Origin: a virus
Lineage: Duplodnaviria > Heunggongvirae > Uroviricota > Caudoviricetes
Length of the DNA stretch: 29,619 nt
IMG/VR virus record: IMGVR_UViG_3300042876_000208
Location: 64,001 to 93,619 of that record
Direction: 5' to 3' (one strand)
The notes under the pieces are model-generated. The model had not been told where the DNA came from and did no database searches. It worked only from the letters and a program-made list of their open reading frames with translations. Every line of letters starts with the position of its first letter. The first letter of the stretch is position 1. A program made the position numbers and the translations under genes. This document shows positions 2,408 to 24,594 of the stretch, in pieces.

Positions 2408-2430
2408 TTGTAATATCCTTTCAATGTATA

Positions 2431-2461: not shown

Positions 2462-2473
2462 CTTGTTACTTAC

Positions 2474-3866: not shown

Positions 3867-3878
3867 TGTAATTCCTTT

Positions 3879-7352: not shown

Positions 7353-7777
7353 TTGTCTAGTTCCTTTTGTAGTCTAGCTAGCTCATTTATAATGCCAGAA
7401 AAGGTGTCTATGTCTATTACTACAAACTCTTTAACACCTTTTCTAGCTCCTGAAAATTTCCCTATTAGCAATGGGATTGAGAGAGCGTCTCTTGCTTCGG
7501 TCATAATTTTATCAACCCATTCTTTCTTAAGAGTGAATTGCTTAACCTCTTTGTTAGTAGATGTGTTATAACCAACTTTACATTCTACCTTGAAACGCTC
7601 ACTAATTCCATCCACTTTACCGGATACATCTCCGGTTAGTAAGGGTTCGTCCATTGTTGTTCCTATAGCTCCTGAACCAGGAATTCTACGGAAATTCGCA
7701 CCGATTATTTTACTATTAAGTAAATCTACTACGTCTTTTTCAAATGTGTTTCCTTTCTGTTTACTACGAAAAACCAT
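7349..7777 (-). CDS. Hjc-type Holliday junction resolvase
   Basis: SKQKGNTFEKDV, RRIPGSGA, GDV and VECK PD-(D/E)XK motifs. Confidence 0.75.
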   Translation of the reverse strand: MVFRSKQKGNTFEKDVVDLLNSKIIGANFRRIPGSGAIGTTMDEPLLTGDVSGKVDGISERFKVECKVGYNTSTNKEVKQFTLKKEWVDKIMTEARDALSIPLLIGKFSGARKGVKEFVVIDIDTFSGIINELARLQKELDK

Positions 7778-8040
7778 TAGCTTTCTGTGTCCTTGACTAT
7801 TTGAATTCCCAATGTTTTATTTTCATAATCCGGGGTAATGAATACGGAAGAATATTTCACATTATCATATTCCTCCATAGACATGGATATTGTATCTTTT
7901 TCTAGTAAGTGCATTAGGTATGCACATACCGCATATAATTCATTTCTCTCGGCATACATCGCGCTTAGAAAAGATGCCTCGTCTCTTAGTTCGTCTAACT
8001 TTTCTTCAATACGTTTAGTCACATCGTTGGGTGTCATCAT
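7777..8040 (-). CDS. Hypothetical protein
   Basis: 87 aa ORF in the operon with an agaaagga RBS. Confidence 0.6.
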   Translation of the reverse strand: MMTPNDVTKRIEEKLDELRDEASFLSAMYAERNELYAVCAYLMHLLEKDTISMSMEEYDNVKYSSVFITPDYENKTLGIQIVKDTES

Positions 8041-8051
8041 GTTTATCCTTT

Positions 8052-9332
8052 CTAAACTATCTTATTTGTTTCTGATTTGAAATCTAGAGTGATTGTACCG
8101 GCTGGGCCATTTCTATTCTTTAGAATAATAAATTCCATTAATCCGGCAAACTTGGTTTCCTTATTGTAATATTCATCACGATATAGTCCAACTAGAACAT
8201 CGGCATCCTCTTCAAGATAACCGGATTGTTTAATGTCGGACATAATAGGACGCTTGTTATCTCTATGTTCAACTTCACGATTTAATTGTGAAAGAGCAAC
8301 CACGCTAATATTAAGGCTATTGGCTAGGTTCTTTAACATCCTAGAAATTCTACCAAGCGTTTGAGTCATCTTATCATCACGCTCGGCAATTAGTTGCATA
8401 TAGTCTACATAAACTGCCTTAATATTATGAACCGTATAGAACTTGCGTACCATTAGTTCTATATAGTAATCATCTATCATAAAGTTTGTATCAAGATAGA
8501 TTGGTAACTTTTTAATTCTTTGAAATGACTCTTTTAGTCTATCAATAGCATCTTGCTTTAGTAAGCCAAGTCTAATGTCTGTAATTGGAACGCCCGAGTC
8601 AATTGCGGCCAATCTTTCCAACATTGTTAAATAGTTCATTTCCTTTGAGAAAATCAATGTTGGATTTCCGGCATAGCCATCATTCAAAGCGGCGTTGCAC
8701 ATCAATGCGGTTTTACCTGAACCTGGTCTACCCGAGATATACCAAAGTTCACCCGGACTCTTGCCTCCGGTTACCACATCTAGTTTCTTAAATCCCCAAG
8801 GGATACCACGCTTACCCGCGTTCTCACCAGTTCTAGACATGATTTCGTTGAATACATCGTTCATGCCTTCACTAATATGAGTAGCCTCACCACTAGTATT
8901 ATTAGTGGAGATTTGTTCTAGAATTTCACGAATGTTTTGTATCTTAGAGTCAACGTTGCTTAATGAAATATCCGAGGCTTTAATTGATGAAACGGCTGAA
9001 ATCAATCCCCTTGCTCTCGCTGAGGCTGAAATCATATTTACATACTCTAGTAAATTTTCCTTGTTGAATTCTTGAGTATAAATATAATCAAGATACTCTT
9101 TACCACCACATCTCTCTAGTTGAGCATTAGCATCTAGTGATGAAGTTAATAGGCTAATGTCCGGTACTAATCCTTTGTTTAAGATGCTTTCAATTTCCGA
9201 AAATATTGTTTGATTTGCAACTGACGAAAACATTGAAAATCTTAGACCGTTTAAATTGTATGCTAAATCAGGATTATGTACAATAATAGAGATTACGGCA
9301 ATTTCGGCTTCTGCTGAATATAGCTCACCCAT
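8052..9332 (-). CDS. dnaB: Replicative DNA helicase DnaB
   Basis: GRPGSGKTA Walker A; FSKEM, YVDYMQL, LSQLNREVE, IKQSGYLEEDAD and KNRNGP motifs. Confidence 0.95.
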   Translation of the reverse strand: MGELYSAEAEIAVISIIVHNPDLAYNLNGLRFSMFSSVANQTIFSEIESILNKGLVPDISLLTSSLDANAQLERCGGKEYLDYIYTQEFNKENLLEYVNMISASARARGLISAVSSIKASDISLSNVDSKIQNIREILEQISTNNTSGEATHISEGMNDVFNEIMSRTGENAGKRGIPWGFKKLDVVTGGKSPGELWYISGRPGSGKTALMCNAALNDGYAGNPTLIFSKEMNYLTMLERLAAIDSGVPITDIRLGLLKQDAIDRLKESFQRIKKLPIYLDTNFMIDDYYIELMVRKFYTVHNIKAVYVDYMQLIAERDDKMTQTLGRISRMLKNLANSLNISVVALSQLNREVEHRDNKRPIMSDIKQSGYLEEDADVLVGLYRDEYYNKETKFAGLMEFIILKNRNGPAGTITLDFKSETNKIV

Positions 9333-15315: not shown

Positions 15316-15535
15316 AAATAAGAATGGTGAATGGATTTGCTCTTATTGTGAAAAGGTGTATGTCCACCCACAAGATGCCGATGTTTGTAGGGAGAGCCAC
15401 GATTTAATTTTGGTTCAATTAACAAAAGAGGAATTGAATAGAATAGTACAATTTCTATTTACGAAAGATGACGATTTATTGAGTGAACAATTAGTAAAAC
15501 GATTACAAAAATATTTGAAAAATCGAGCAATTTGA
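15305..15535 (+). CDS. Small Zn-finger-like protein
   Basis: WICSYCEKVY...CRESH. Confidence 0.6.
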   Translation: MASKNKNGEWICSYCEKVYVHPQDADVCRESHDLILVQLTKEELNRIVQFLFTKDDDLLSEQLVKRLQKYLKNRAI

Positions 15536-15539
15536 CCCC

Positions 15540-15568
15540 TTGACAAATAAAAAGAGTTGTGCTAAAAT
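15540..15568 (+). promoter_or_regulatory. Sigma70-type promoter heading the tRNA array
   Basis: TTGACA-17 nt-TAAAAT with TGn. Confidence 0.85.
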
Positions 15569-15629
15569 AGACCCATCGTTAAATTTAAGCACAAAATTGA
15601 AAAATGTGTTAGAATTAATTTAACAAAAT

Positions 15630-15701
15630 GGCCCGTTAGTTCAAAAGTAGAGCGTCTCTCTGTCGAAGAGAAGGTTAGGATAGCATAATTCCTACGGGTC
15701 G
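15630..15701 (+). tRNA. tRNA-Asp(GTC), atypical elbow
   Basis: Acceptor ggcccgt/acgggtc; anticodon arm tctct-ctGTCga-agaga; G73; T-loop AGCATAA. Confidence 0.8.
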
Positions 15702-15774
15702 CCTGTCTTAAAGGTTGCGTTTGTCGTAAAACAAACTAAGCGTGTGACCTTCAACGGGGTGCAATGCCCCAAGC

Positions 15775-15848
15775 GTTCCTATACGATAATCGGACTAGTC
15801 ATCCACACTCTCAATGTGGCAATGCGGGTTCAAGCCCCGCTGGGAACA
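15775..15848 (+). tRNA. tRNA-Glu(CTC)
   Basis: gttccta/tgggaac; ccaca-ctCTCaa-tgtgg; TTCAAGC T-loop. Confidence 0.9.
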
Positions 15849-15854
15849 CTACAT

Positions 15855-15927
15855 GCCCTCATAACACAACGGACAAGTGTAGAAGACTCTTAATCTTTTA
15901 ATCAGGGTTCGATTCCCTGTGAAGGCA
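15855..15927 (+). tRNA. tRNA-Lys(CTT)
   Basis: gccctca/tgaaggc; gaaga-ctCTTaa-tcttt; TTCGATT. Confidence 0.9.
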
Positions 15928-15928
15928 C

Positions 15929-15991
15929 TAGACTACTTACAGCAAATATAAAACAATTGACAGTTAATCAATCAACGTTTTATGTAGTCTA
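15929..15991 (+). ncRNA. ACAGCAA stem motif, copy 1
   Basis: tagactac/gtagtcta stem; ACAGCAA at 15939-15945; inner hairpin. Confidence 0.7.
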
Positions 15992-15995
15992 ATTT

Positions 15996-16067
15996 CGGGA
16001 AGTAGGGTAACGGTAGCCCACTACGTTTGGGACGTAGCCAGTGAAAGTTCAAGTCTTTCTTTCCCGA
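15996..16067 (+). tRNA. tRNA-Pro(TGG)
   Basis: cgggaag/tttcccg; ctacg-ttTGGga-cgtag; TTCAAGT. Confidence 0.9.
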
Positions 16068-16073
16068 CAACAT

Positions 16074-16146
16074 CATGTGGTAGCCCAATTGGTAAAGGCG
16101 TTGCGTTGTGGCCGCAAATATCTAGGTTCGACTCCTAGCCACCTGA
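16074..16146 (+). tRNA. tRNA-His(GTG)
   Basis: catgtgg/ccacctg; ttgcg-ttGTGgc-cgcaa; T at -1 opposite A73. Confidence 0.85.
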
Positions 16147-16152
16147 CTAGCG

Positions 16153-16303
16153 TACTATTTCCCGAAAGGAATAGTATCTATAAAGTCGATAGTTAGCGGA
16201 TATACAGAAAGTCCTATTATAATGGCTCTCTACTGTGCAGAGGAACTAACTACGTGACATATAGAGTTTTAAAACGTACTCGTGTCTTACGTTAAAGACA
16301 CCA
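16153..16303 (+). ncRNA. Unassigned multi-hairpin structured spacer RNA
   Basis: Long interrupted helix 16178-16196/16246-16264 plus flanking hairpins; no ORF support. Confidence 0.5.
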
Positions 16304-16306
16304 TAT

Positions 16307-16377
16307 GCGTGTATAGTGAAAAAGTATCACACCATCCTTCCAAGTTGGAATTGAGATTGCGAAATTCTCTACCCGCA
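16307..16377 (+). tRNA. tRNA-Gly(TCC), atypical elbow
   Basis: gcgtgta/tacccgc; ccatc-ctTCCaa-gttgg; T-loop TGCGAAA. Confidence 0.8.
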
Positions 16378-16382
16378 CCTAT

Positions 16383-16473
16383 GGATGTTAGCCGGATATT
16401 GGTTGAGCCGGAGCGGTCTGTAAAATCGTATGGCCTGGAAGAAGGCATATTAGTTCAATTCTAATAACATCCA
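16383..16473 (+). tRNA. tRNA-Tyr(GTA)
   Basis: ggatgtt/aacatcc; gcggt-ctGTAaa-atcgt; long variable arm. Confidence 0.9.
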
Positions 16474-16481
16474 CAAAACTT

Positions 16482-16552
16482 GGGGTACGTAATGTAACGG
16501 GAACATATCTTCCTTGCAAGAAGAACTAGGGGTTCGACTCCCACGCGCTCCA
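16482..16552 (+). tRNA. tRNA-Ala(TGC), irregular acceptor/T stem
   Basis: G3.U70 present; tcttc-ctTGCaa-gaaga; best fit is an 8-bp acceptor with a 3-4 bp T stem. Confidence 0.75.
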
Positions 16553-16603
16553 CTAGTAATACAACATATTCGGGTTCTATCTAGGAGAAAGGAAAGGTTT
16601 AAA

Positions 16604-16834
16604 GTGAAACTGTTTACGGATAAGGAATTTGGTTTGATTTTGGAAGCACTCGGCACTACTAAGGATAAGGCTACCGAAAGGGTAACTGCGGCAAAGAGTG
16701 ACCTTGAAACTTAGGTTACATCACTTACCGACAATATTAAAGAGGTCAGTGCAAGACTAACCGAACTTAGTAAGGAACAGAAAGAAAAGAGCAAGACTCT
16801 TAAGTTACTTGGTGGTGTACTAGCTAGACTATAA
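16604..16834 (+). pseudogene. 76-aa coiled-coil ORF interrupted by an in-frame TAG (16712-16714)
   Basis: Strong RBS then GTG; heptad-like sequence continues 39 codons past the TAG to TAA. Confidence 0.6.
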
Positions 16835-16845
16835 AAATTAAATAA

Positions 16846-16903
16846 AAAGATTACCTACAGCAACTATAAAAAATCAATTGGATGATAATTAAAGGTAATC
16901 TTT
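16846..16903 (+). ncRNA. ACAGCAA stem motif, copy 2
   Basis: aaagattacct/aggtaatcttt 11-bp stem; ACAGCAA at 16857-16863. Confidence 0.7.
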
Positions 16904-16905
16904 AT

Positions 16906-16980
16906 GTCCTTGTGGCGAAATGGCTCACGCACTACGCTTAGGACGTAGACAACCTGGAGGTTCGACTCCTCTCAAGGACA
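16906..16980 (+). tRNA. tRNA-Leu(TAG), short variable loop
   Basis: gtccttg/caaggac; ctacg-ctTAGga-cgtag; TTCGACT. Confidence 0.85.
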
Positions 16981-16984
16981 CTAA

Positions 16985-17046
16985 GCCAGCATCTAGAATG
17001 GTTCGATTCCATTCCCCTAGGGATGATGTAATGGAAACATACTGGC
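16985..17046 (+). ncRNA. Circularly permuted tRNA-like RNA (YrlA-like core)
   Basis: Order: gccag, T arm (aatgg-TTCGATT-ccatt), short hairpin, TG, D arm (atgt-aatGGaa-acat), A, ctggc. Confidence 0.7.
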
Positions 17047-17049
17047 AAT

Positions 17050-17120
17050 GACAACTTAACCAAGCGGCTAGGTAACTGTCTGCAAAACAGTTTAAGCGAG
17101 TCCGATTCTCGCAGTTGTCT
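17050..17120 (+). tRNA. tRNA-Cys(GCA)
   Basis: gacaact/agttgtc; actgt-ctGCAaa-acagt; U73. Confidence 0.9.
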
Positions 17121-17126
17121 CAATAC

Positions 17127-17164
17127 ACGCTCATCTCCTAGTGGTAAAGGAACTAATTTATGGA
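17127..17164 (+). pseudogene. 5' tRNA half remnant fused to the HNH start
   Basis: D-arm-like tcct-agtggtaa-agga, then ctaat-ttATGga; no 3' half. Confidence 0.45.
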
Positions 17165-17678
17165 AGAAATTTGGAAAGATGTTATCGGCTACGAAACATA
17201 TTATAAAGTGAGTACACGAGGAAGAGTGTTTAGCTATCGGTCTAATAGAATAGTTAAGCCCTCAAAAATAGGCTCAGGCTACTTATGTATATCTACTAGA
17301 TTAAATGGAAGAGCATCCCCCTGCCTAGCCTTAAGAATTCATCGTTTAGTAGCTATCGCTTTTTTGGACAATCCAGATAATTTACCAGAAGTAAATCATA
17401 TAGATGGTATAAAAACAAATAATGATATTACTAATCTAGAATGGTGTACACATCAAGAAAATGTTATACATGCCAGTAAGTTAGGGCTACTTCATATTAC
17501 ACGCGGCGTTGATTCTCCAGTGGCTAAACTCTTTAAAGAAGAAGTTGAACAGATAAGAGATTTGTATGCTACAAAAGCGTTTACACAATTAGAATTAAGT
17601 TTAATGTATGATGTATCAAGACCAACAATTTCAAGAGTAATAAATAATAAAGTATACTCCTTTAGCTCAGAAGTGTAG
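17160..17678 (+). CDS. NUMOD4-HNH homing endonuclease with C-terminal HTH
   Basis: EIWKDVIGYETYYKVSTRGRV; HRLVAIAF...VNHIDGIKTNN...NLEWCT; HTH-like tail. Confidence 0.9.
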   Translation: MEEIWKDVIGYETYYKVSTRGRVFSYRSNRIVKPSKIGSGYLCISTRLNGRASPCLALRIHRLVAIAFLDNPDNLPEVNHIDGIKTNNDITNLEWCTHQENVIHASKLGLLHITRGVDSPVAKLFKEEVEQIRDLYATKAFTQLELSLMYDVSRPTISRVINNKVYSFSSEV

Positions 17679-17729
17679 AGCGTTCGGTTTACATCCGAAA
17701 GGTCGGGATTGCAAAATTCTCAAGGAGTA
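17656..17729 (+). tRNA. tRNA-Val(TAC), atypical elbow
   Basis: actcctt/aaggagt; ttcgg-ttTACat-ccgaa; T-loop TGCAAAA; overlaps the HNH 3' end. Confidence 0.8.
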
Positions 17730-17733
17730 CTTT

Positions 17734-17807
17734 GTACCTTTCGTGATTACGGTTTAACACGCCATGCTGAAGACATGGAAAACTCAGTTCGACACTGAGA
17801 GGGTACA
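17734..17807 (+). tRNA. tRNA-Phe(GAA)
   Basis: gtacctt/agggtac; ccatg-ctGAAga-catgg; TTCGACA. Confidence 0.9.
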
Positions 17808-17873
17808 CTGTCTCGTTGTTCCCGAAGACACGCAAGCTATGGGATACTAAACTCTTTTTAGTAATCGGGACAT

Positions 17874-17900
17874 GCAGAAGTAGCTCAACTGGTCAGAGCT
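17874..17900 (+). pseudogene. 5' tRNA half (acceptor strand + D arm) truncated by an antisense HNH gene
   Basis: gcagaag-ta-gctc-aactggtca-gagc, then unrelated sequence. Confidence 0.7.
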
Positions 17901-18348
17901 TTATTAATCCGGCATGAATTTCTCTGTGACAGTTTGAACAAACTAAGATACATTTATCCAGTTCTATTTTTACTTTATTCCACGCTTTGTTAGTATTAGT
18001 TGAAATACTAAAATCTTTTGTATTTGGGTTCTTATGATGAAATTCAAGAGCCTCAACACACTTGGAATAACCACAAACACAACACTTACCGCCACAATAT
18101 TCTACTGCTTTTTGTTTTGTTCTTTTTCTAAATGATTTTATTCTAGGGTAGTCTTTTATTGGTGTATCTCTACAAGAATCACATAGTTTTCTGTATCGTT
18201 CTACTGGTTTTCCACAAATATGACAACCTCTTTCAACATCTATCTTTGCAACATGTCTAATATACAACTTGTTGTTTAAAATTGCAGAACAACTTCTAGA
18301 GCAAAACTTTGGGTTTTTTGTTTCTTTGCCACAATTTAAACACTTCAT
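17893..18348 (-). CDS. HNH endonuclease with N-terminal Zn fingers, antisense to the array
   Basis: MKCLNCGK...FCSRSC; CCVCGY...LEFHH...LDKCILVCSNCHREIH; start moved to ATG 18348 after aaaggag. Confidence 0.85.
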   Translation of the reverse strand: MKCLNCGKETKNPKFCSRSCSAILNNKLYIRHVAKIDVERGCHICGKPVERYRKLCDSCRDTPIKDYPRIKSFRKRTKQKAVEYCGGKCCVCGYSKCVEALEFHHKNPNTKDFSISTNTNKAWNKVKIELDKCILVCSNCHREIHAGLIKL

Positions 18349-18361
18349 TATTATCTCCTTT

Positions 18362-18437
18362 GGGTAGGTACTATCAATTGGTTCAGATGAGAATCCTGAT
18401 AAGGTTCTGTGTGCAGGTTCGATTCCTGCTCTACCCA
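18362..18437 (+). tRNA. tRNA-Ile(GAT)
   Basis: gggtagg/tctaccc; gaatc-ctGATaa-ggttc; TTCGATT. Confidence 0.85.
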
Positions 18438-18466
18438 CTCTATATACAGTAATTATATCATAAATT

Positions 18467-18528
18467 GCAGAAATATGTATCAAATGGTGATACACGAAAG
18501 GTTGGGAGTCCGAGTCTCTCTTTCCGCA
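18467..18528 (+). ncRNA. Anticodon-less tRNA-like RNA
   Basis: gcagaaa/tttccgc acceptor; 6-bp D hairpin with GG loop; cgaaag in place of the anticodon arm; T arm gggag-TCCGAGT-ctctc. Confidence 0.65.
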
Positions 18529-18627
18529 CAAGGTTACAAGCCTTACTACACTTAAGCCATTGTGTAGCCCCTAATAAGACAGCCGGTGCATCGTTAACGG
18601 TAGAAGGGCATCTAATCCATCGGCCAA

Positions 18628-18704
18628 GCTTGTGTGATGCAAATATGGCAGACATGTCTTGCTCAAAACGAGATTTTTTGAAGGTTCGAGTCCTTTCACA
18701 AGCA
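18628..18704 (+). tRNA. tRNA-Leu(CAA), short variable loop
   Basis: gcttgtg/cacaagc; tcttg-ctCAAaa-cgaga; TTCGAGT. Confidence 0.85.
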
Positions 18705-18717
18705 CTAGGAGAACATT

Positions 18718-19461
18718 ATGTTAATTAGTATTAGTGCAAGAGTTACCGTACCCGCTCTTAGAATAAGAGCTTATGCTGGTATTGAGAATGAAATTACTGG
18801 AATGTTATTCTATTCAAACCCCGTAGAAATACGTGAGGTTATCCCCGTAGGAACTGAGTTTTGGGGTAGAGTAGAAAGAGGTTGGATTTGTTTAAAGCAA
18901 GGTATCTTTACTTATACAAATCTAAGAAACTTTTCTTGGTATGTTGGTTCTACAAATTTATATAGAGTTGCCGCAGAAAGATGGCCAGAACTACACGGAC
19001 AGACTAGACCCCCGAACGGTGGCCCATTAGTCCAGGTAGCAAGTGATTCCATCAAAGGTGGCAAGTATATTTACCCACTAGATAAAGTGGCACAGGATTA
19101 TATTAGAATGTGGAACAACGCTCGTGGTTATGCTAAGATTGTAGCACCCGACGTCGGCCCCTCGCAAGGGATAGACCCATTAACCGGAAGACTTAAATGG
19201 AATTACTTAGTCTGGCCTTCCGTAACTAATAATCCTAATACTCTAAAGGTTGTGGAAACATTAGGTGATTGGTGTAGATTTGAAACCATTCCTTACGTGT
19301 TTCCCGTAGCAAAGGATATTAATCCTACAGCTACACCCTGGTTATTTCATAAGATGTGTGATAATATGGGTAATCCATTTATAGTAGATGGTGCTTATAT
19401 AATTCTACCTATATTTGGAAAGGCATGTTGGGTTCCAAGTAGAGCTTTAATAAAGTTATGA
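18718..19461 (+). CDS. Protein with an N-terminal SH3b-like (cell-wall-binding) domain
   Basis: VTVPALRIRAYAG...FWGRVERGWICL resembles bacterial SH3; remainder unrecognised. Confidence 0.55.
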   Translation: MLISISARVTVPALRIRAYAGIENEITGMLFYSNPVEIREVIPVGTEFWGRVERGWICLKQGIFTYTNLRNFSWYVGSTNLYRVAAERWPELHGQTRPPNGGPLVQVASDSIKGGKYIYPLDKVAQDYIRMWNNARGYAKIVAPDVGPSQGIDPLTGRLKWNYLVWPSVTNNPNTLKVVETLGDWCRFETIPYVFPVAKDINPTATPWLFHKMCDNMGNPFIVDGAYIILPIFGKACWVPSRALIKL

Positions 19462-19545
19462 GAGGTAGCCTGAGAGGTCAGAATTGGTCTTGAAAACCAT
19501 GCCATCCAGTGCCCCTGGGTGAGGGTTCGACTCCTTTACCTCCCG
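19460..19545 (+). tRNA. tRNA-Ser(TGA), weak D arm
   Basis: ttggt-ctTGAaa-accat; long variable arm; TTCGACT; G73. Confidence 0.7.
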
Positions 19546-19549
19546 CTAT

Positions 19550-19636
19550 TGAGAATTGACAGAGTGGCAATGTGTACGTTTGCTAAACGTAAGCCATCCT
19601 TGAGTGGATGCACAGGTTCAATCCCTGTATTCTCAG
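19550..19636 (+). tRNA. tRNA-Ser(GCT)
   Basis: tgagaat/attctca; tacgt-ttGCTaa-acgta; long variable arm; G73. Confidence 0.85.
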
Positions 19637-19641
19637 CTTAT

Positions 19642-19714
19642 TGACGAGTCGTTTAAATGGATAGACATCGCACTCTGGATGCGAGAAGTGTAGGTTCGAC
19701 TCCTACCTCGTCAG
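19642..19714 (+). tRNA. tRNA-Gln(CTG)
   Basis: tgacgag/ctcgtca; tcgca-ctCTGga-tgcga; TTCGACT. Confidence 0.9.
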
Positions 19715-19735
19715 CTAGTAAGAAAGGAGATAATT

Positions 19736-19918
19736 ATGGGAAGTATAGATATATTTCTGATTGTTTCTATAATTGCCATAATCATAGCGATTATTGCTAC
19801 AATAATTATGGCTATAGCATTGATACGGTTCATTAAAAGAATGAACGAACTAGACAAACAATTTGAGCAAACGATTAACACCCTTTTAGAGTATAAAAGG
19901 GGTCTTGACAAAAAATAA
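19736..19918 (+). CDS. Small membrane protein (60 aa)
   Basis: agaaaggag RBS; one long TM segment then a charged tail. Confidence 0.7.
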   Translation: MGSIDIFLIVSIIAIIIAIIATIIMAIALIRFIKRMNELDKQFEQTINTLLEYKRGLDKK

Positions 19919-19933
19919 GACCTATGCTATAAT
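19905..19933 (+). promoter_or_regulatory. Perfect sigma70-type promoter upstream of the tRNA-like RNA and DUF2828 gene
   Basis: TTGACA-17 nt-TATAAT with TGn; ggtctt/aagacc inverted repeat overlaps the -35 box. Confidence 0.9.
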
Positions 19934-19937
19934 ACAC

Positions 19938-20065
19938 GAGTGGTTAAGCAACGCCGAGGTCGCAAGGTGCGTATAAAATAAAACTAATCTTGGGATTAGA
20001 CACAGCCACTCATATAAAACTTCTTCTGACTAAGAAAATTGTGGGTTCAATTCCCTCCCTCGGCT
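19938..20065 (+). ncRNA. tRNA-like RNA with the D arm replaced by ~60 nt and crossing helices
   Basis: gccgagg/cctcggc acceptor; T arm with TTCAATT; anticodon-like arm; gagtggt/gccactc crossing helix. Confidence 0.6.
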
Positions 20066-20071
20066 CTAAAC

Positions 20072-20127
20072 TAGATTGCATACAGCAACTATAATTCTTA
20101 CTGCAAATAGAGAGAAAATGCAATCTA
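20072..20127 (+). ncRNA. ACAGCAA stem motif, copy 3 (upstream of DUF2828)
   Basis: tagattgcat/atgcaatcta 10-bp stem; ACAGCAA at 20082-20088. Confidence 0.7.
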
Positions 20128-20170
20128 TGTTATTTCATTCAAATCAAGGATTAAGAAAAGGAGTATTGAA

Positions 20171-21589
20171 ATGACAAGGCTATTTAAGGCTCTAACAACA
20201 AATGACACAGTAACAACAAACGGAATGGTAACTAATTCCACATCCTCAAACTACCTATTGGATATGTTTTTCAGGATGGGTGGTTCAAGACAGATGGACG
20301 AGTCATCAATCCAGACCATGTTCCTAAACGCTTATCATGAGAACCCAGAATATGCTCTAAAGGCATTGTTCTACAATCGTGATATTCGTGGTGGGCAGGG
20401 TGAAAGACGCTCGTTTAGATTGATGTTTCAGGCTCTATGTATTGTAGACCCATCAACTGCAATTAGATTGATTAACTATGTTCCTGAGTATGGTAGATGG
20501 GATGACCTATTCGTAGCATTTGGAACAGATGTTTGGGAGTCTGTAACTGATTTAATCTTAAGCTCTCTAAAGCGTGGTGACAAGCTTTGTGCAAAGTGGA
20601 TGCCTAGACCTAACAAGGCAAAGGCTTACATTGCGAAGGATTTGGCAAAGGCTTGGGGTCTTTCACTAGATGACTATAGAGACTTAATTGTAAAGCATAC
20701 CGATGTAGTAGAAACTCTCATGTGCAAGAGAGAGTGGACTGCAATCAATTACAATCATGTTCCATCAAAGGCTAGCCATCAGTATAGAGGTGCATACCTA
20801 AAGCATGACGAGGATAGATACCGCGAGTGGCTGGGTAATCTAACTAAGGTTGATGAAAAGGGTAAGCCACTAGCTAAGGTAAATGCGGGTGCAATTTTCC
20901 CACATGATGTAATCAAGCCTTACTTTGGTTATGGCAACACAGATACTGATACATTGATTGAGGCCCAGTGGAAGGCACTTCCTGAGTATGCACCAAAGGG
21001 TAATAAGGTAATTTCTGTTTGTGACGTATCCGGTTCTATGAATGGTCTACCTTTGCTAGTATGTTTAGCATTGGGTATCTACACCGCAGAGAGAAACAAT
21101 GGTATCTTTAAGAATGGTTTCATTACATTCTCAGAGAGACCAGCTCTACAGATTCTTAAGGGTAAGACCTTGAGAGACAAGGTAAATGAACTACATAGAG
21201 CGCATTGGGATATGAACACAAATCTAGAGGCAGTATTTGAACTACTACTTACTTCCGCTAAGAGAGATAATCTATCCGAAGAGGATATGCCAGATACCAT
21301 CCTAATCCTATCCGATATGCAGTTTGATGCTTGTGTAAGAAATAAGAGCAACAGTGCTATTGATATGATTAAGAGAATGTATTCAGAAGCAGGATACAAT
21401 GTTCCTAATGTAATCTTTTGGAACTTGAATACAGGTAGTGGTATTCCAGTAAAGTATGATACTAGCGGCACAGCCGTTGTATCCGGGTTTAGTCCATCTA
21501 TTCTAAAGAGCATTATAAGTGGTAATATTAACCCAATTGCTCAGATGATGGAAGTTCTAAACTCAGAACGCTACTCAAAGATTAACTAA
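20171..21589 (+). CDS. DUF2828-family protein, Ro60/TROVE-like N-terminus + vWA domain
   Basis: RDIRGGQGER, VPEYGRWDDL, LCAKWMPR, VNAGAIFPHDV, VCDVSGSM (MIDAS DxSxS), NTNLEAVF, ILSDMQFD, IFWNL and SGFSP motifs. Confidence 0.9.
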   Translation: MTRLFKALTTNDTVTTNGMVTNSTSSNYLLDMFFRMGGSRQMDESSIQTMFLNAYHENPEYALKALFYNRDIRGGQGERRSFRLMFQALCIVDPSTAIRLINYVPEYGRWDDLFVAFGTDVWESVTDLILSSLKRGDKLCAKWMPRPNKAKAYIAKDLAKAWGLSLDDYRDLIVKHTDVVETLMCKREWTAINYNHVPSKASHQYRGAYLKHDEDRYREWLGNLTKVDEKGKPLAKVNAGAIFPHDVIKPYFGYGNTDTDTLIEAQWKALPEYAPKGNKVISVCDVSGSMNGLPLLVCLALGIYTAERNNGIFKNGFITFSERPALQILKGKTLRDKVNELHRAHWDMNTNLEAVFELLLTSAKRDNLSEEDMPDTILILSDMQFDACVRNKSNSAIDMIKRMYSEAGYNVPNVIFWNLNTGSGIPVKYDTSGTAVVSGFSPSILKSIISGNINPIAQMMEVLNSERYSKIN

Positions 21590-21590
21590 A

Positions 21591-21658
21591 AGAATGGTGT
21601 GGTCAGGGAAAGACCTTAAATCGTTGTTCAAGTGAGCCCCAAGATAACAGCCATTTCT
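21591..21658 (+). ncRNA. Structured element directly downstream of DUF2828
   Basis: agaatgg(t)/(g)ccatttct outer helix; ggtc-agggaaa-gacc hairpin. Confidence 0.45.
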
Positions 21659-21662
21659 AACT

Positions 21663-21878
21663 ATGAATAATTATTTGCAGTGGCAATGTTCAGCATCCGG
21701 TATAGAGTTTAATCCTAACGGATACATCACCGCAACCGGAATTTCAAATTTATATGAACCACAAGAGTATATACAAACTAGAGCTACCGTTGTTTTACAT
21801 AAGGTTAAATGTCCTTATTGCGGAAGCTATGGTGAAAGATTTAGTAATTGTACTCATTGTGGTGGTGCAATAGATTAA
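21663..21878 (+). CDS. Small protein with C-terminal double CxxC Zn ribbon
   Basis: KCPYCGS...NCTHCGG. Confidence 0.65.
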   Translation: MNNYLQWQCSASGIEFNPNGYITATGISNLYEPQEYIQTRATVVLHKVKCPYCGSYGERFSNCTHCGGAID

Positions 21879-21881
21879 CAC

Positions 21882-21933
21882 AGACTACATACAGCAAACA
21901 TACTTTGGGTAGCCACCCGCTTGGCAGTAGTCT
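21882..21933 (+). ncRNA. ACAGCAA stem motif, copy 4
   Basis: agactac/gtagtct stem; ACAGCAA at 21891-21897; inner gggt-agcc-accc hairpin. Confidence 0.7.
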
Positions 21934-21939
21934 TTATAT

Positions 21940-22010
21940 AGGTTGTTAGTATAGTGGTATTATAAACGTCTCCAAAACGTAGGACAGGAGTTCGATTCTT
22001 CTACGACCTG
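21940..22010 (+). tRNA. tRNA-Trp(CCA)
   Basis: aggttgt/acgacct; aacgt-ctCCAaa-acgta; G73. Confidence 0.9.
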
Positions 22011-22027
22011 CTAAAAAGGAATTAATT

Positions 22028-22156
22028 ATGTCTGAACTTCTACCATATGTAGCCGTAGCAATTATAGCTTTAATAATCACTGCCTATTTTGGATATAGTG
22101 TAACTATCGGATTAATTATAGCTATGATATTACAAAGTTTAGGCATAACGTTTTAA
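22028..22156 (+). CDS. 42-aa membrane peptide (MSELLPYVAVAIIALIITAYFG...)
   Basis: Hand-translated; aaaagga RBS; hydrophobic throughout. Confidence 0.55.
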   Translation: MSELLPYVAVAIIALIITAYFGYSVTIGLIIAMILQSLGITF

Positions 22157-22161
22157 ATCAA

Positions 22162-22235
22162 TGCGCGGTGGACTGGAGCGGTTCCAGCACGTCCCCATAA
22201 GTCGTATCACGAGAGTCCGAATCTCTCCCGCGCAA
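22162..22235 (+). tRNA. tRNA-Met(CAT), atypical (C33, extended D stem)
   Basis: tgcgcgg/ccgcgca; loop ccCATaa; TCCGAAT T-loop; lacks the three G-C pairs of initiator tRNA. Confidence 0.7.
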
Positions 22236-22299
22236 CTAATAGCTAAGTATATATAACGATTGGCTAACTACCACAACAACGTATACTTAGCTGTGCTAT

Positions 22300-22370
22300 T
22301 CCCGAATCGTACAATGGCAGTACGCGAAGCTGTTAACTTCGTTATCGTGGTTCGAGTCCATGTTTGGGAG
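22300..22370 (+). tRNA. tRNA-Asn(GTT)
   Basis: tcccgaa/tttggga; cgaag-ctGTTaa-cttcg; G73. Confidence 0.9.
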
Positions 22371-22374
22371 CTAT

Positions 22375-22450
22375 GCGACTTTAAACCCTCACGCTTCTAA
22401 CGTGCTGGAAGGTTAACGGATACATGCAGGTTCAAATCCTGTAAGTCGCG
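22375..22450 (+). ncRNA. Topologically rearranged tRNA-Arg(TCT)-like RNA
   Basis: Perfect acceptor gcgactt/aagtcgc and T arm; anticodon hairpin cacg-ctTCTaa-cgtg nested inside an aacc/ggtt stem; D-loop-like AACGGATA lies 3' of it. Confidence 0.65.
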
Positions 22451-22470
22451 CCTAGTAGAGAGGATACAAA

Positions 22471-22686
22471 ATGAACCACAAAAGAGAAGTAACATCTTAT
22501 ACCGAACGTTATTACACCATTGTAAAGTGGAATAATGAACTAGTAGGATATGAAGAAATAGAAATATTGGATAGTGAATTAAGTGAGGTTTCCGCAGTTC
22601 ATTATATGTATTCAAAATATGGCTTTGGAAAAGAATATAAAGTACGTCAAGTATTTATAACTAAGCTATATTATGATATAGAATAA
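22471..22686 (+). CDS. Hypothetical protein (71 aa)
   Basis: ORF with a gagagga RBS. Confidence 0.65.
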   Translation: MNHKREVTSYTERYYTIVKWNNELVGYEEIEILDSELSEVSAVHYMYSKYGFGKEYKVRQVFITKLYYDIE

Positions 22687-22691
22687 ATCAT

Positions 22692-22763
22692 GCCTTGTAA
22701 ACATATATAGTGATGTACCTGTCCTGTAAACAGGATAACTGGACGCAAGTTCCAGACGAGGCT
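22692..22763 (+). tRNA. tRNA-Thr(TGT), atypical elbow, C33
   Basis: gccttgt/acgaggc; cctgt-ccTGTaa-acagg; T-loop CGCAAGT. Confidence 0.7.
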
Positions 22764-22768
22764 CTAAA

Positions 22769-22863
22769 AGACTTGTAACAGAAAACTCAAATTAACCACA
22801 CAACACAAGAGTCTATAACTACGTTGTAGGTTCTTAGTTGTGTGATGACACAATATCAAGTCT
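22769..22863 (+). ncRNA. ACAGAAA variant of the stem motif, copy 5, long inner hairpin
   Basis: agacttg/caagtct stem; ACAGAAA at 22778-22784; inner cacacaac/gttgtgtg and ctataac/gttgtag helices. Confidence 0.6.
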
Positions 22864-22868
22864 AATTC

Positions 22869-22941
22869 GCACTCGTAGCTCAATGGTCAGAGCAACTGTC
22901 CTATTAACAGCAAGTTGGGGGTTCGACTCCCTCGGAGTGCA
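22869..22941 (+). tRNA. tRNA with TAT anticodon (Ile AUA reader or pseudo-tRNA), Thr-like acceptor
   Basis: gcactc/gagtgc; canonical D and T arms; loop ccTATta lacks U33 and purine 37. Confidence 0.6.
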
Positions 22942-22945
22942 CAAG

Positions 22946-22996
22946 GTTAAAGCCCCATAGAGTTTTTTCGCCTCCTTTCTACTATGGGGCTTTAAC
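22946..22996 (+). ncRNA. 15-bp hairpin with an anti-Shine-Dalgarno loop
   Basis: gttaaagccccatag/ctatggggctttaac; loop contains CCTCCTTTCTA. Confidence 0.65.
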
Positions 22997-22999
22997 TAC

Positions 23000-23028
23000 T
23001 TGACTTTTTGAACAAAAGGATTTATAAT
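23000..23028 (+). promoter_or_regulatory. Sigma70-type promoter after the array
   Basis: TTGACT-17 nt-TATAAT. Confidence 0.8.
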
Positions 23029-23239
23029 GTATAAAATAAAATGTCCCTTTTGCCTAGGTTGCATGGATTTGGTTTACACCCCACAAATGGAACAAGTATG
23101 GCATTGTTGGTTGTGTAAAACTTGGTACGTAAATGAGTTGGAAAATGGTTTGAGAAAAGTTGAAAATCCATTACTGGAGAATATAGATAACAAGCCAAAT
23201 TCCTAAAGGTAAGAATAAAAAAGAAAGGTACAAAAAATC

Positions 23240-23620
23240 ATGGAGACATTTCTGAAGAACATTGGGTTCTTTAGATTGGCAATAGAGCAATCAAAGAAGT
23301 CTACACATAAGGTAAAGGTTGGGGCAGTTCTAGCTAACAAGCGCCCTGTGGCAAGAGGTTATAACAAGATTAAATCTCATCCGATTTGGGCTAATCCATC
23401 TAAGCATGTAAAGATTTCCATTCATGCTGAAATAGATTGTCTTATGGATAGCTCAGCTAGTGAGGGTGATACAATGTATGTCTATCGTGAAGATAGTCTA
23501 GGTTGGCCAGCTCTAGCAAGACCTTGTGTTGATTGTATGAAAGTATTGAAAGAACGCGGGATTAGAAAGGTCATCTACAGTATAGCACATCCTCCATACT
23601 ATAAAGAGGAGTTCATATAA
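23240..23620 (+). CDS. Zn-dependent cytidine/dCMP deaminase-superfamily protein
   Basis: KVGAVL, ARGYN, HAEID and ARPCVDC motifs. Confidence 0.85.
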   Translation: METFLKNIGFFRLAIEQSKKSTHKVKVGAVLANKRPVARGYNKIKSHPIWANPSKHVKISIHAEIDCLMDSSASEGDTMYVYREDSLGWPALARPCVDCMKVLKERGIRKVIYSIAHPPYYKEEFI

Positions 23621-24051: not shown

Positions 24052-24594
24052 ATGGAAACACCCCAGCAGAAATACGCAAGAGTTCATAAAGATGAATTAA
24101 AACTATATAGAAAGCAGTGGAGAGACTCTCATAAGGAATCTACAAAAGAATATTTGAAGAGCTACTATATAGAGAATAAAGAAAAGATACTTAAACGTGT
24201 GTCGGATAGATACTATGAGCATCATATAAATGAAGTTCCATCTTGTGAATTTAATCTTGAATTCGTATTAAATGAGCAAAGAAACTTGAGAAAAGTAAAA
24301 CAAGCTTATAAACGGGCTGGCGGTGGTGATTTTTCATTAAAAGATTGGTATTCTTTACTAGAGGAATTTGATTACAAGTGTGCATATTGTAAGGAAAGAA
24401 CTAATCATTTGTCTCCTGACCACGTTATTCCACTTTCTCGTGGTGGAGAAAATACATTAAATAATATTCTTCCCGCTTGCACAACATGTAATACATCAAA
24501 AAATAAAAAGTTGCTGGAAGAATGGATTCCTAATCTGAATGATAAGATGAACGAATATTTTGATGCACATCCTATTATTTGTGAGGAAACATGA
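24052..24594 (+). CDS. HNH endonuclease (McrA-like)
   Basis: CAYC...DHVIPLSRGGENTLNNILPACTTCNTSK. Confidence 0.85.
   Translation: METPQQKYARVHKDELKLYRKQWRDSHKESTKEYLKSYYIENKEKILKRVSDRYYEHHINEVPSCEFNLEFVLNEQRNLRKVKQAYKRAGGGDFSLKDWYSLLEEFDYKCAYCKERTNHLSPDHVIPLSRGGENTLNNILPACTTCNTSKNKKLLEEWIPNLNDKMNEYFDAHPIICEET

What the first reader, a model, noticed from the sequence alone, without database searches (positions are those of the whole stretch)
15929..22863. Candidate phage Ro60-like ribonucleoprotein system: DUF2828 gene embedded among Y-like and tRNA-mimic RNAs
Seen: a DUF2828/vWA gene (20171-21589) lies inside a tRNA operon. A perfect promoter (19905) precedes, in order, a ~128-nt tRNA-like RNA, an ACAGCAA stem and the gene. 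The array holds four more ACAG(C/A)AA stems and at least three other broken-topology tRNA mimics. Known: Ro60/Rsr (TROVE + vWA) binds Y RNAs; bacterial and phage YrlA RNAs are permuted tRNA mimics encoded near rsr; Rsr is linked to RNA decay and repair. DUF2828 shares the architecture, but I know of no defined RNA partner for it. Inference: DUF2828 is the protein subunit, and these RNAs, released by tRNA processing, are its scaffolds or decoys. Possible roles are tRNA quality control or defence against host tRNA-targeting immunity.
Basis: partly seen in the sequence, partly recalled or inferred. Interest (0 to 1): 0.9.

Follow-up and report, generated by a model that had tools for sequence, protein, structure and literature searches.

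The report
Phage Ro60-like protein with partner RNAs
A soil phage encodes, inside its tRNA operon, a protein shaped like the RNA-surveillance protein Ro60 together with small structured RNAs that share one conserved "handle"; the same pairing recurs in phages of very different bacteria and in bacterial genomes, so it is probably a widespread, so far undescribed relative of Ro/Y-RNA particles.

Summary

Four hairpins in the window share one "handle": a 7-10 bp closing stem with unpaired ACAGCAA beside its 5' strand. A fifth (ACAGAAA) is marginal and a sixth is not supported.

The new result is co-occurrence.
- ACAGCAA is about ten times enriched, on the gene strand only, next to DUF2828 genes in 76 viral loci and 80 bacterial-genome loci.
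- The stem covaries.
- A covariance model finds handles beside the gene in cultured Staphylococcus, Listeria, Salmonella, Campylobacter and Bacillus phages.
- Handles found by DNA pattern alone lead back to the gene.
- Some relatives' handles enclose permuted tRNA domains that Rfam's YrlA model detects below threshold. Simple handles are detected below threshold by the Dictyostelium Class I RNA model.

Binding and expression are untested. The idea was partly anticipated by the Bas63 gp130 preprint and by "Ro-like" annotations. I found no published description of the RNA family. This scan reached the same reading on other genomes.

The parts
15540..15568 (+). Sigma-70-type promoter at the head of the tRNA array (TTGACA-17-TAAAAT, 11/12, TG-extended)
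15630..22942 (+). tRNA array: 21 canonical tRNAs on one strand, interrupted by HNH genes, small ORFs and the elements below
15929..15991 (+). Handle RNA H1. Stem TAGACTAC/GTAGTCTA with unpaired TT-ACAGCAA beside the 5' strand. It starts directly after tRNA-Lys and ends 4 nt before tRNA-Pro.
   Evidence: z -3.45; 44.6 bits; training member
16846..16903 (+). Handle RNA H2. 10-bp stem AAAGATTACC/GGTAATCTTT plus ACAGCAA. It ends 2 nt before tRNA-Leu.
   Evidence: z -4.31; 53.4 bits; training member
16985..17046 (+). Permuted tRNA-like element between tRNA-Leu and tRNA-Cys: closing stem GCCAG/CTGGC, T arm, short acceptor-like hairpin, D arm. It has no ACAGCAA motif.
   Evidence: Sequence inspection; the fold shows the closing stem; relatives have the same topology inside ACAGCAA handles
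19905..19933 (+). Consensus sigma-70 promoter (12/12, TG-extended) of the transcription unit: tRNA-like RNA, handle, DUF2828 gene
19953..20065 (+). Long tRNA-like RNA: 7-bp acceptor stem, T arm, degenerate D hairpin. An internal hairpin followed by ACAGCCA and an A-rich tract sits where the D/anticodon region should be.
   Evidence: 7 homologues; acceptor and T arms covary; each has a hairpin plus AC(A/C/U)GC(A/C)A inside
20072..20127 (+). Handle RNA H3. Stem TAGATTGCA/TGCAATCTA plus ACAGCAA. It starts 6 nt after the tRNA-like RNA and ends 43 nt before the start codon.
   Evidence: z -2.06; 51.9 bits; training member
20171..21589 (+). Ro60-like protein (DUF2828 helical domain plus DUF7788 vWA domain with intact MIDAS residues D285, S287, S289, T350, D382)
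21882..21933 (+). Handle RNA H4. Stem AGACTAC/GTAGTCT plus ACAGCAA. It starts 3 nt after a 71-aa ORF and ends 6 nt before tRNA-Trp.
   Evidence: (33.2 bits; training member)
22375..22450 (+). tRNA-Arg(UCU)-like RNA with acceptor and T arms but no D arm
   Evidence: (tRNA-Sec model 22.4 bits, E 0.78)
22769..22863 (+). Possible fifth handle. Stem AGACTTG/CAAGTCT, variant motif ACAGAAA, long inner hairpin. It ends 5 nt before tRNA-Ile(UAU).
   Evidence: searches (z -3.75; 14.6 bits, E 0.29): marginal

Best explanation
The locus encodes a Ro60-type ribonucleoprotein system built from a divergent protein clade and a distinct RNA family.

The protein (DUF2828 helical ring plus a MIDAS-bearing vWA domain) probably binds a conserved RNA 'handle'. 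The handle is a 7-9 bp helix that joins the RNA's 5' and 3' ends (consensus UAGRWUNN...NNAWYCUG), with unpaired ACAGCAA immediately 3' of the 5' strand.

In this phage the handles are transcribed within the tRNA operon, from promoters at 15540 and 19905. They abut tRNAs with gaps of 0-6 nt. The tRNA-processing nucleases (RNase P at tRNA 5' ends, 3'-end nucleases at tRNA 3' ends) should therefore release them as RNAs of about 55-65 nt.

The variable part enclosed by the handle differs from RNA to RNA. Here it is a plain loop. In relatives it can be a permuted tRNA-like domain, as in YrlA. In the 112-nt RNA the arrangement is reversed, and a tRNA body carries a handle-like module. This variable part would act as a tether or decoy for tRNA-binding or RNA-decay factors.

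The gene-proximal handle may also let the protein regulate its own mRNA.

Shown: the fold, the anatomy, the covariation and the two-way co-occurrence. Inferred: binding, processing, tethering or decoy action, and any role in RNA surveillance or counter-defence.
For: Fold:
- Ro60 chains fill the top 13 Foldseek ranks (E 1.2e-10 to 3.7e-06, TM 0.47-0.63).
- The MIDAS residues and many Arg/Lys/aromatic residues of the helical domain are invariant in 53 homologues.

RNA in the window:
- All 4 TACAGCAA sites of the 93.6 kb genome are hairpins inside the array.

Family level:
- In 76 non-redundant viral loci, ACAGCAA occurs 84 times on the gene strand in the 600 nt upstream of the gene. That is 0.27-0.49 per 200 nt, against about 0.03 elsewhere and almost none on the other strand.
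- 122 of 206 motif sites have a perfect 7-bp closing stem at a fixed offset, against 40 of 206 controls.
- In 54 aligned handles, 8 of 9 stem pairs show changes on both sides. 89.7% of cells are paired, against 30-43% when the partner columns are slid.
- Model R1 hits 9 sites at E < 0.01 in five of nine cultured phages that were not used for training (Staphylococcus, Listeria P100, FelixO1, Campylobacter, Bacillus). All are on the gene strand and within about 600 nt of the gene, either upstream or downstream.
- All 43 R1 hits in 34 further loci are on the gene strand.
- In bacterial-genome loci, 44 of 68 have the motif within 1 kb upstream.

Reverse test:
- Of 65 viral loci found by the handle DNA pattern alone and having a closing stem, 33 hold a DUF2828 gene in the fetched stretch, always on the same strand. 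Of 10 others tested, 6 have the gene elsewhere on the contig.

Curated Rfam models:
- YrlA hits handle-closed permuted-tRNA RNAs in relatives (39.8 bits, E 2.8e-05).
- Dicty_Class_I_RNA hits 8 simple handles (best 37.4 bits).
- FelixO1 has a handle enclosing a T arm, an acceptor hairpin and a D arm.

Precedent:
- Ro60 orthologues are encoded next to their Y RNAs on the same strand (PMC4201824).
- Thermus phage phiLo Ro60 binds two RNAs encoded upstream of its gene (PMC12135203).
Against: - No binding data, and no RNA-seq run holds this phage, so neither discrete transcripts nor processing are shown.
- There is no sequence-level match to TROVE or to any solved Ro60.
- The handle differs from the known Ro-binding sites: the bulged helix of animal Y RNAs and the GNCGAA motif of YrlA.
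- The window's own handles end in UCUA/UCUU instead of the family's CUG.
- The window's permuted tRNA-like element lacks the motif.
- The covariation set was chosen for having a stem, so the percentage paired is partly circular. The slid-partner and swapped-downstream controls are the fair comparison.
- In 16 of 42 loci with an upstream handle, the gene-proximal handle ends 25 nt or less before the start codon. That fits a purely cis-acting operator.
- About 10 of 76 loci, and Vibrio phage VH7D, show no handle.
Confidence: 0.7

Rival explanations
1. The handles are only cis-acting leader elements. The protein, or a host factor, binds the hairpin in front of the ribosome-binding site to control translation or stability of the DUF2828 mRNA and of neighbouring precursors. 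No free RNA-protein particle forms.
For: In 16 of 42 loci with an upstream handle, its 3' strand ends 25 nt or less before the start codon, often directly beside the Shine-Dalgarno sequence. In the window, H3 would become the 5' end of the mRNA once the tRNA-like RNA has been cut off.
Against: - Handles lie downstream of the gene in Staphylococcus phage S-CoN_Ph8, FelixO1 and Fezzik.
- They occur in 2-9 copies per locus, some kilobases from the gene and between tRNAs.
- In this window three of four are flanked by tRNAs, not by the gene.
- Many enclose tRNA-like domains, which an operator does not need.
Confidence: 0.12
2. The hairpins are processing or stability signals of phage tRNA operons, read by host RNases. 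They sit near DUF2828 only because both live in tRNA arrays.
For: In the window every handle abuts a tRNA or the tRNA-like RNA with a gap of 0-6 nt. Most DUF2828 loci lie in tRNA arrays.
Against: - Handles adjoin the gene where no tRNA was found within several kb. L012 has none; L013 has only a tmRNA; in Staphylococcus phage S-CoN_Ph8 the nearest tRNA is 2 kb away; the Dysosmobacter locus has one tRNA.
- Enrichment peaks at the gene, not across the arrays.
- The unpaired motif is the same in phages of Gram-negative hosts, Gram-positive hosts and cyanobacteria, whose RNases differ. That points to a recognition factor inherited together with the RNA.
Confidence: 0.08
3. The repeats act at the DNA level, as promoters, protein-binding sites or miniature mobile repeats.
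For: An A/T-rich TAAA/TATAAT-like tract follows the motif. The repeats are dispersed and lie near homing endonuclease genes.
Against: - Strand bias relative to the gene is strict: all 43 hits are on the gene strand, and the minus strand is close to zero.
- Compensatory changes keep the helix while its sequence drifts.
- The same motif occurs in phages whose hosts use different promoters.
- Loops of 35-200 nt are unlikely to extrude from duplex DNA.
Confidence: 0.04

Closest known systems
Bacterial and phage Ro60 (Rsr) with Y RNAs: Yrn1 of Deinococcus; YrlA/YrlB of Salmonella, many bacteria and mycobacteriophages (Chen et al. 2014, PMC4201824; Rfam RF02553)
   Same: - A ring-shaped helical domain plus a MIDAS vWA domain.
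- Partner RNAs encoded within a few kb on the same strand.
- RNAs closed by a stem that joins the 5' and 3' ends.
- One class carries a permuted tRNA-like domain (T arm, acceptor hairpin, D arm).
- Rfam's YrlA model hits such RNAs in relatives below threshold.
   Different: - The protein has no TROVE match by sequence.
- The conserved RNA motif is unpaired ACAGCAA beside the stem, not GNCGAA or a bulged helix.
- The RNAs sit inside tRNA operons.
- No Rfam YrlA hit in this window at E <= 5.
Thermus phage phiLo Ro60 with Yrl1/Yrl2 (NAR 2025, PMC12135203; PDB 9KOP, 9L5Y)
   Different: The phiLo RNAs use a CGAA motif. Binding and PNPase recruitment were shown for phiLo; nothing has been shown here. 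A profile of the DUF2828 clade does not find the phiLo protein by sequence.
Bas63 (FelixO1-type coliphage) gp130, reported by PhageMaP (bioRxiv 10.1101/2024.10.10.617714)
   Different: - The preprint reports a phenotype (counters the Ppl defence system) but defines no RNA partner.
- That gp130 is the DUF2828 orthologue is my inference from its position and from the gene's presence in 251 FelixO1-like records.
- The present phage is only about 33% identical to FelixO1's protein.
Class I RNAs of dictyostelid amoebae (Rfam RF01414; Kjellin et al. 2021, PMC7919456)
   Same: - RNAs of about 60 nt with a short stem joining the 5' and 3' ends.
- A conserved unpaired 11-nt motif beside the 5' strand. 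Its invariant positions (T3, C6, C9, A10, A11) fit ..T..C..CAA, as in TTACAGCAA.
- Start AAG and end CUGU resemble the phage UAG...CUG(U).
- The Rfam model hits 8 phage handles along its full length (25-37 bits) and two in FelixO1.
   Different: - All hits are below the gathering score of 41.5, and there are none in this window at E <= 5.
- Class I RNAs have their own Pol promoters (DUSE).
- They are reported to be restricted to Dictyostelia and to bind an RRM protein (Rnp1A).
- Homology is not shown.
Stable RNAs C and D (species 1 and 2) of the phage T4 tRNA gene cluster (recalled from memory, not checked here)
   Same: Small stable non-tRNA RNAs of unknown function, co-transcribed and co-processed with phage tRNAs.
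   Different: I did not compare sequences. T4 itself was not tested here for a DUF2828 gene.

Membership tests
DUF2828/DUF7788 proteins (Pfam PF11443 + PF25043; PHROG 850 'RNA-binding protein') | Pfam and PHROG profile matches above the cut-off | tested here: met
   PF25043 175.8 bits and PF11443 93.5 bits; phrog_850 E 2.6e-130
Ro60/Rsr (TROVE + vWA) | Overall fold: helical-repeat ring closed by a vWA domain | tested here: met
Ro60/Rsr (TROVE + vWA) | Sequence match to the TROVE domain (PF05731) or to solved Ro60 chains | tested here: not met
   No TROVE hit at E <= 0.01. A profile of 53 homologues finds no Ro60 chain at E <= 1. One ESM Atlas cluster of DUF2828 proteins has TROVE on 16% of its members, which is only a hint of a bridge.
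Ro60/Rsr (TROVE + vWA) | MIDAS motif in the vWA domain | tested here: met
   D285, S287, S289, T350 and D382 are invariant in 53 homologues
Ro60/Rsr (TROVE + vWA) | Candidate partner RNAs encoded nearby on the same strand | tested here: met
Ro60/Rsr (TROVE + vWA) | Direct binding of Y RNA; association with exoribonucleases | not testable with these tools
   Needs RIP-seq, EMSA or a structure
YrlA RNA (Rfam RF02553) | Score at or above the Rfam gathering threshold (69 bits) | tested here: not met
   No hit in window 15400-23200 at E <= 5. Relatives reach 39.8, 28.2 and 26.4 bits.
YrlA RNA (Rfam RF02553) | Conserved GNCGAA(N)G motif at the protein-binding stem | tested here: not met
   In 54 aligned handles the invariant block is ACAGCAA, and no GNCGAA column is conserved
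YrlA RNA (Rfam RF02553) | Closing stem enclosing a permuted tRNA-like domain (T arm, acceptor-like hairpin, D arm) | tested here: inconclusive
   In the window, 16985-17046 has this order by inspection but lacks the motif, and the energy-minimum fold shows only the closing stem. The topology is clear in FelixO1 and in about 10 relatives.
Dictyostelium Class I RNA (Rfam RF01414) | Score at or above the gathering threshold (41.5 bits) | tested here: not met
   Best phage handle 37.4 bits, E 0.0019; seven more at 25-30 bits; none in this window at E <= 5
Dictyostelium Class I RNA (Rfam RF01414) | Short 5'/3' stem with a conserved unpaired motif beside its 5' strand; length about 60 nt | tested here: met
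   features of the family taken from PMC7919456
Canonical tRNA (for the RNA at 19953-20065) | Cloverleaf with D arm and a conserved 7-nt anticodon loop; Rfam or ARAGORN detection | tested here: not met
   Not called by ARAGORN or Rfam. The D arm is degenerate. The anticodon-like hairpin is not conserved in homologues: L087 has a tetraloop, and L083 has a 5-bp stem around the insert. The acceptor and T arms are present and covary.

The most novel reading that the evidence does not exclude
The phage and bacterial handle RNAs and the Class I RNAs of dictyostelid amoebae would be one ancient RNA family: stem, then (UU)ACAGCAA, then stem-CUGU. DUF2828-type Ro paralogues, which also occur in eukaryotes and giant viruses, would be their shared protein partner. 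That would give the unexplained Class I RNAs a Y-RNA-like identity. It would also define a second Ro/Y ribonucleoprotein lineage spanning phages, bacteria and eukaryotes.
Probability: 0.12. Interest if true: 0.9.

Novelty: new variant of a known kind. Interest (0 to 1): 0.75.

Why it matters
Ro60/Y-RNA particles are a classic but still poorly understood RNA-surveillance system, and their bacterial and phage biology rests on a handful of cases. Four points follow if the reading holds.

- **Scale.** DUF2828 proteins occur in at least 711 deposited phage genomes, in thousands of metagenomic proteins and in bacterial genomes. A defined RNA signature for them would turn a "domain of unknown function" into a second, much larger branch of Ro/Y particles.
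- **Unexplained hairpins.** It would account for the unexplained non-tRNA hairpins seen here in the tRNA arrays of DUF2828-bearing phages.
- **Testability.** It would give testable RNA ligands in tractable phages such as FelixO1, Bas63 and Listeria P100.
- **Phenotype.** It would link to the one reported phenotype, in which Bas63 gp130 counters the Ppl defence system.

It also shows that a tRNA-like module can be displayed in either connectivity. In relatives the permuted tRNA domain sits inside a handle, whereas in the 112-nt RNA the handle-like module sits inside a tRNA body.

Tried and rejected
- Megablast of the locus against deposited phages: no match. The phage is known only from metagenomes.
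- Sequence-profile search of the PDB: no Ro60 chain, only a weak vWA hit.
- Rfam on the window at gathering threshold and at E <= 5: nothing but tRNAs and noise.
- Public sequencing runs: only two rhizosphere DNA runs hold the stretch and no RNA holder is listed. I therefore did not lay reads, and nothing can be said about expression.
- A conserved second protein: the small ORFs directly downstream of the gene in this phage, Chewbecca, EFDG1, P100, B23, L084 and L087 do not align. Rejected.
- The idea that the 112-nt RNA is the missing tRNA-Val(GAC): rejected. A tRNA-Val(UAC) exists at 17656-17729, and the anticodon-like loop is not conserved in homologues.
- AlphaFold DB cluster search and ESM Atlas, used to ask whether Dictyostelium has a DUF2828 protein: organism names were withheld or too coarse. 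Left untested.
- Guessing the Bas63 accession: MZ501108 is Bas27. The spread list of FelixO1-like records did not show Bas63. The equivalence gp130 = DUF2828 orthologue stays an inference.
- Two encoding-contig look-ups returned gene tables but no DNA.
- Complex prediction was not used, because it does not take RNA.
- The literature search for 'ACAGCAA' returned only unrelated primer and sequence matches.

Full report
**Setting.** The window is the last 29.6 kb of a 93.6 kb IMG/VR phage record with direct terminal repeats. The only public runs that hold it are two rhizosphere DNA metagenomes. No deposited phage is close at the DNA level.

Positions 15540-22942 form a one-strand tRNA operon.
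- ARAGORN tRNAs.
- Rfam and relaxed ARAGORN add Asp(GUC) at 15630, Gly(UCC) at 16307, Val(UAC) at 17656 and Met(CAU) at 22162.
- The array is interrupted by HNH endonuclease genes and small ORFs.

**The protein.** ORF 20171-21589 matches Pfam DUF7788 (E 1e-51) and DUF2828 (E 1.7e-26), and PHROG 850 'RNA-binding protein'. Sequence methods do not connect it to Ro60: there is no TROVE hit, and a profile of 53 homologues finds no Ro60 chain in the PDB.

Structure does connect it.
- An AlphaFold2 model built on that alignment has pLDDT 82.9 and pTM 0.78.
- Ro60 chains fill Foldseek's first 13 ranks. They include Xenopus (1yvr, E 1.2e-10, TM 0.61), human, Deinococcus Rsr and Thermus phage phiLo.
- The MIDAS residues D285, S287, S289, T350 and D382 are invariant, as are many Arg, Lys and aromatic residues of the helical domain.

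So the protein works like, and is very probably a distant relative of, Ro60. It fails the sequence definition of TROVE. Annotators already reflect this: homologues in 711 deposited phages are labelled 'Ro-like RNA binding protein', 'RNA-binding protein' or 'vWFA'.

**The transcription unit.** A 12/12 sigma-70 promoter with an extended -10 lies at 19905-19933. It is followed by:
- a leader of about 13 nt;
- a 112-nt RNA (19953-20064) with a perfect 7-bp acceptor stem and a T arm, but a degenerate D hairpin and about 45 extra nucleotides;
- 6 nt later, a hairpin (20072-20127) with unpaired ACAGCAA;
- 43 nt later, the start codon.

**The hairpins.** TACAGCAA occurs four times on the + strand of the whole genome. 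All four copies lie in the array, and each sits directly 3' of the 5' strand of a 7-10 bp stem that closes a 35-45 nt loop. The four are 15929-15991, 16846-16903, 20072-20127 and 21882-21933. They abut tRNAs with gaps of 0-6 nt, so tRNA processing should release them.

A fifth element with ACAGAAA (22769-22863) folds well but scores only 14.6 bits with my model. The ACAGAAA site at 16204 is not supported (z +0.25, no model hit).

**Is the motif tied to the gene?** I fetched 80 viral loci through the protein and four closer relatives.
- Most of the genes sit in same-strand tRNA arrays.
- In 76 non-redundant loci, ACAGCAA occurs 84 times on the gene strand in the 600 nt upstream of the gene. That is 0.27-0.49 per locus per 200 nt, against about 0.03 elsewhere and almost none on the opposite strand.
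- The extended consensus is tUAGRWUnn-nn-ACAGCAA-mnUAAA ... nnAWYCUGuu.
- A perfect 7-bp closing stem at a fixed 2-nt offset is present at 122 of 206 motif sites, against 40 of 206 when the downstream sequence is swapped.
- In an alignment of 54 short handles (A3), 8 of 9 pairs show changes on both sides. 89.7% of cells pair, against 30-43% with slid partners. RNAalifold finds the same helix on its own. Because the set was picked for having stems, the slid and swapped controls are the meaningful numbers.

**Independent tests.** A covariance model built from A3 (R1) finds nothing else in the phage's 93.6 kb.

I then searched nine cultured phages that were not used for training.
- Five give hits at E < 0.01, nine sites in all: Staphylococcus S-CoN_Ph8 (8e-06), Listeria P100 (1e-05), FelixO1 (2.5e-04), Campylobacter NCTC12673 (2.7e-04) and Bacillus Chewbecca (2.6e-03).
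- Synechococcus B23, mycobacteriophage Fezzik and Enterococcus EFDG1 give weaker hits.
- Vibrio VH7D gives none.
- Every gene-adjacent hit is on the gene strand and within about 600 nt of the gene, either upstream or downstream.

In 34 viral loci that lacked an exact motif beside the gene, all 43 hits are on the gene strand, and 24 loci have one, mostly adjacent.

In 80 loci from bacterial and archaeal genome assemblies, the motif is again concentrated in the 1 kb upstream. There are 87 hits there, against 1-4 per bin elsewhere, and 44 of 68 loci have one.

The reverse test also holds. A 14-base handle pattern fetched 80 viral loci without reference to the protein.
- Of the 65 with a closing stem, 33 contain a DUF2828 gene in the fetched stretch, always on the motif's strand and usually within 800 nt.
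- Of 10 others tested, 6 carry the gene elsewhere on the contig.
- The four without it are incomplete records (3-71% complete).

**What the RNAs look like.** Handles enclose variable cargo. Many are plain loops of about 55-65 nt.

About ten of 46 long ones enclose a hairpin, a T arm, an acceptor-like hairpin and a D arm. That is a permuted tRNA, the architecture of YrlA. FelixO1 has a clear example among its tRNAs (L089 5463-5585).

Curated Rfam models agree, although below threshold.
- YrlA hits two such RNAs (39.8 bits, E 2.8e-05; and 26.4 bits).
- The Dictyostelium Class I RNA model hits eight simple handles along its full length (25-37 bits; gathering score 41.5), and two in FelixO1.
- Class I RNAs are defined by a short 5'/3' stem, an unpaired 11-nt motif beside the 5' strand, an AAG start and a CUGU end (PMC7919456). 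This closely resembles the phage handle.

The window's 112-nt RNA belongs to a third class. It has a normally connected tRNA body whose acceptor and T arms covary in seven homologues, one of which is annotated 'tRNA-Undet' in cyanophage B23. An internal hairpin followed by AC(A/C/U)GC(A/C)A replaces the anticodon region. It is not a decoding tRNA, because the anticodon-like loop is not conserved and tRNA-Val(UAC) exists elsewhere in the array.

The window also has a minimal permuted tRNA-like element without the motif (16985-17046) and a tRNA-Arg-like RNA without a D arm (22375-22450).

**Mechanism.** The best reading is that the protein recognises the junction of the closing helix with single-stranded ACAGCAA. 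Ro60 is known to bind helices on its surface and single strands in its hole (PMC12135203, introduction). The cargo would then tether or decoy tRNA-binding or RNA-decay factors.

Gene-proximal handles that end at the Shine-Dalgarno sequence (16 of 42 loci) suggest added autoregulation. None of this is shown.

The rivals are less likely, because of:
- handles downstream of the gene and in loci where no tRNA was found nearby;
- the peak of enrichment at the gene itself;
- the strict strand bias;
- compensatory changes in the stem;
- the spread of hosts.

**Known or new.**
- Ro60 with Y RNAs in bacteria and phages is established (PMC4201824; PMC12135203).
- The PhageMaP preprint reports that Ro60-like gp130 of Bas63 lies upstream of the tRNAs and counters the Ppl defence system, and it speculates that some tRNA genes are Y RNAs.
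- Chen et al. searched only TROVE-annotated genomes.
- Full-text searches for DUF2828, YrlA with phage, Ro-like, Ro60 with phage, and Ro60-like found no description of this RNA family.
- Earlier notes of this scan reached the same reading on other genomes. I re-derived the evidence here.

I class the finding as a new variant of a known kind.

Noticed in passing
window 17160-17678 (+), 17893-18348 (-), 24052-24594 (+): There are three HNH homing-endonuclease genes in and beside the tRNA array (NUMOD4+HNH_3; phrog_2255; HNH_5). The first overlaps the 5' end of tRNA-Val (17656-17729). The second lies on the opposite strand, right next to tRNA-Ile (18362).
   Followed up: partly
window 17874-17899: A tRNA 5' half (acceptor strand plus complete D arm, GCAGAAG-TA-GCTC...GAGC) has no matching 3' half. 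It abuts the minus-strand HNH gene. It may be the remnant of a tRNA gene broken by insertion of the endonuclease.
   Followed up: no
window 19736-19918 and 22028-22156: Two small, very hydrophobic ORFs (60 and 42 aa, each with one predicted membrane helix judged by eye) sit between tRNAs. The first ends inside the promoter at 19905.
   Followed up: no
window 18718-19461: A 247-aa ORF inside the tRNA array has only a weak SH3_3 hint (E 0.003) and no PHROG match.
   Followed up: partly
window 22949-22993 and 23000-23028: A 12-bp hairpin with a 21-nt loop follows the last tRNA. An 11/12 sigma-70 promoter comes directly after it. This is probably the end of the tRNA/Ro operon and the start of the next unit, which includes dCMP deaminase at 23240-23620.
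   Followed up: no
L003 8234-8305, L026 12658-12735, L032 11585-11659: Related phages carry a tRNA with anticodon CUA (ARAGORN calls it 'Pyl') in the same arrays. These are possible amber-suppressor tRNAs.
   Followed up: no
L013 2510-2874, L015 3431-3798: tmRNA genes lie close to the DUF2828 gene in two related phage loci. In L013 two handles sit between the gene and the tmRNA.
   Followed up: no
L125 (Dysosmobacter segnis, 388 kb contig) 2000-9100: This is a chromosomal-looking bacterial locus. Six ACAGCAA sites lie in an ORF-free stretch of about 2 kb upstream of a DUF2828 gene. Downstream come a class-V aminotransferase and an ORF with a weak RNA-ligase match (E 1.3e-04).
   Followed up: partly
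L102 (Synechococcus phage B23) 5336-5444: The feature annotated 'tRNA-Undet' in this cultured cyanophage is a member of the long tRNA-like class that carries a handle-like module. It lies 400 nt downstream of the phage's DUF2828 gene.
   Followed up: partly
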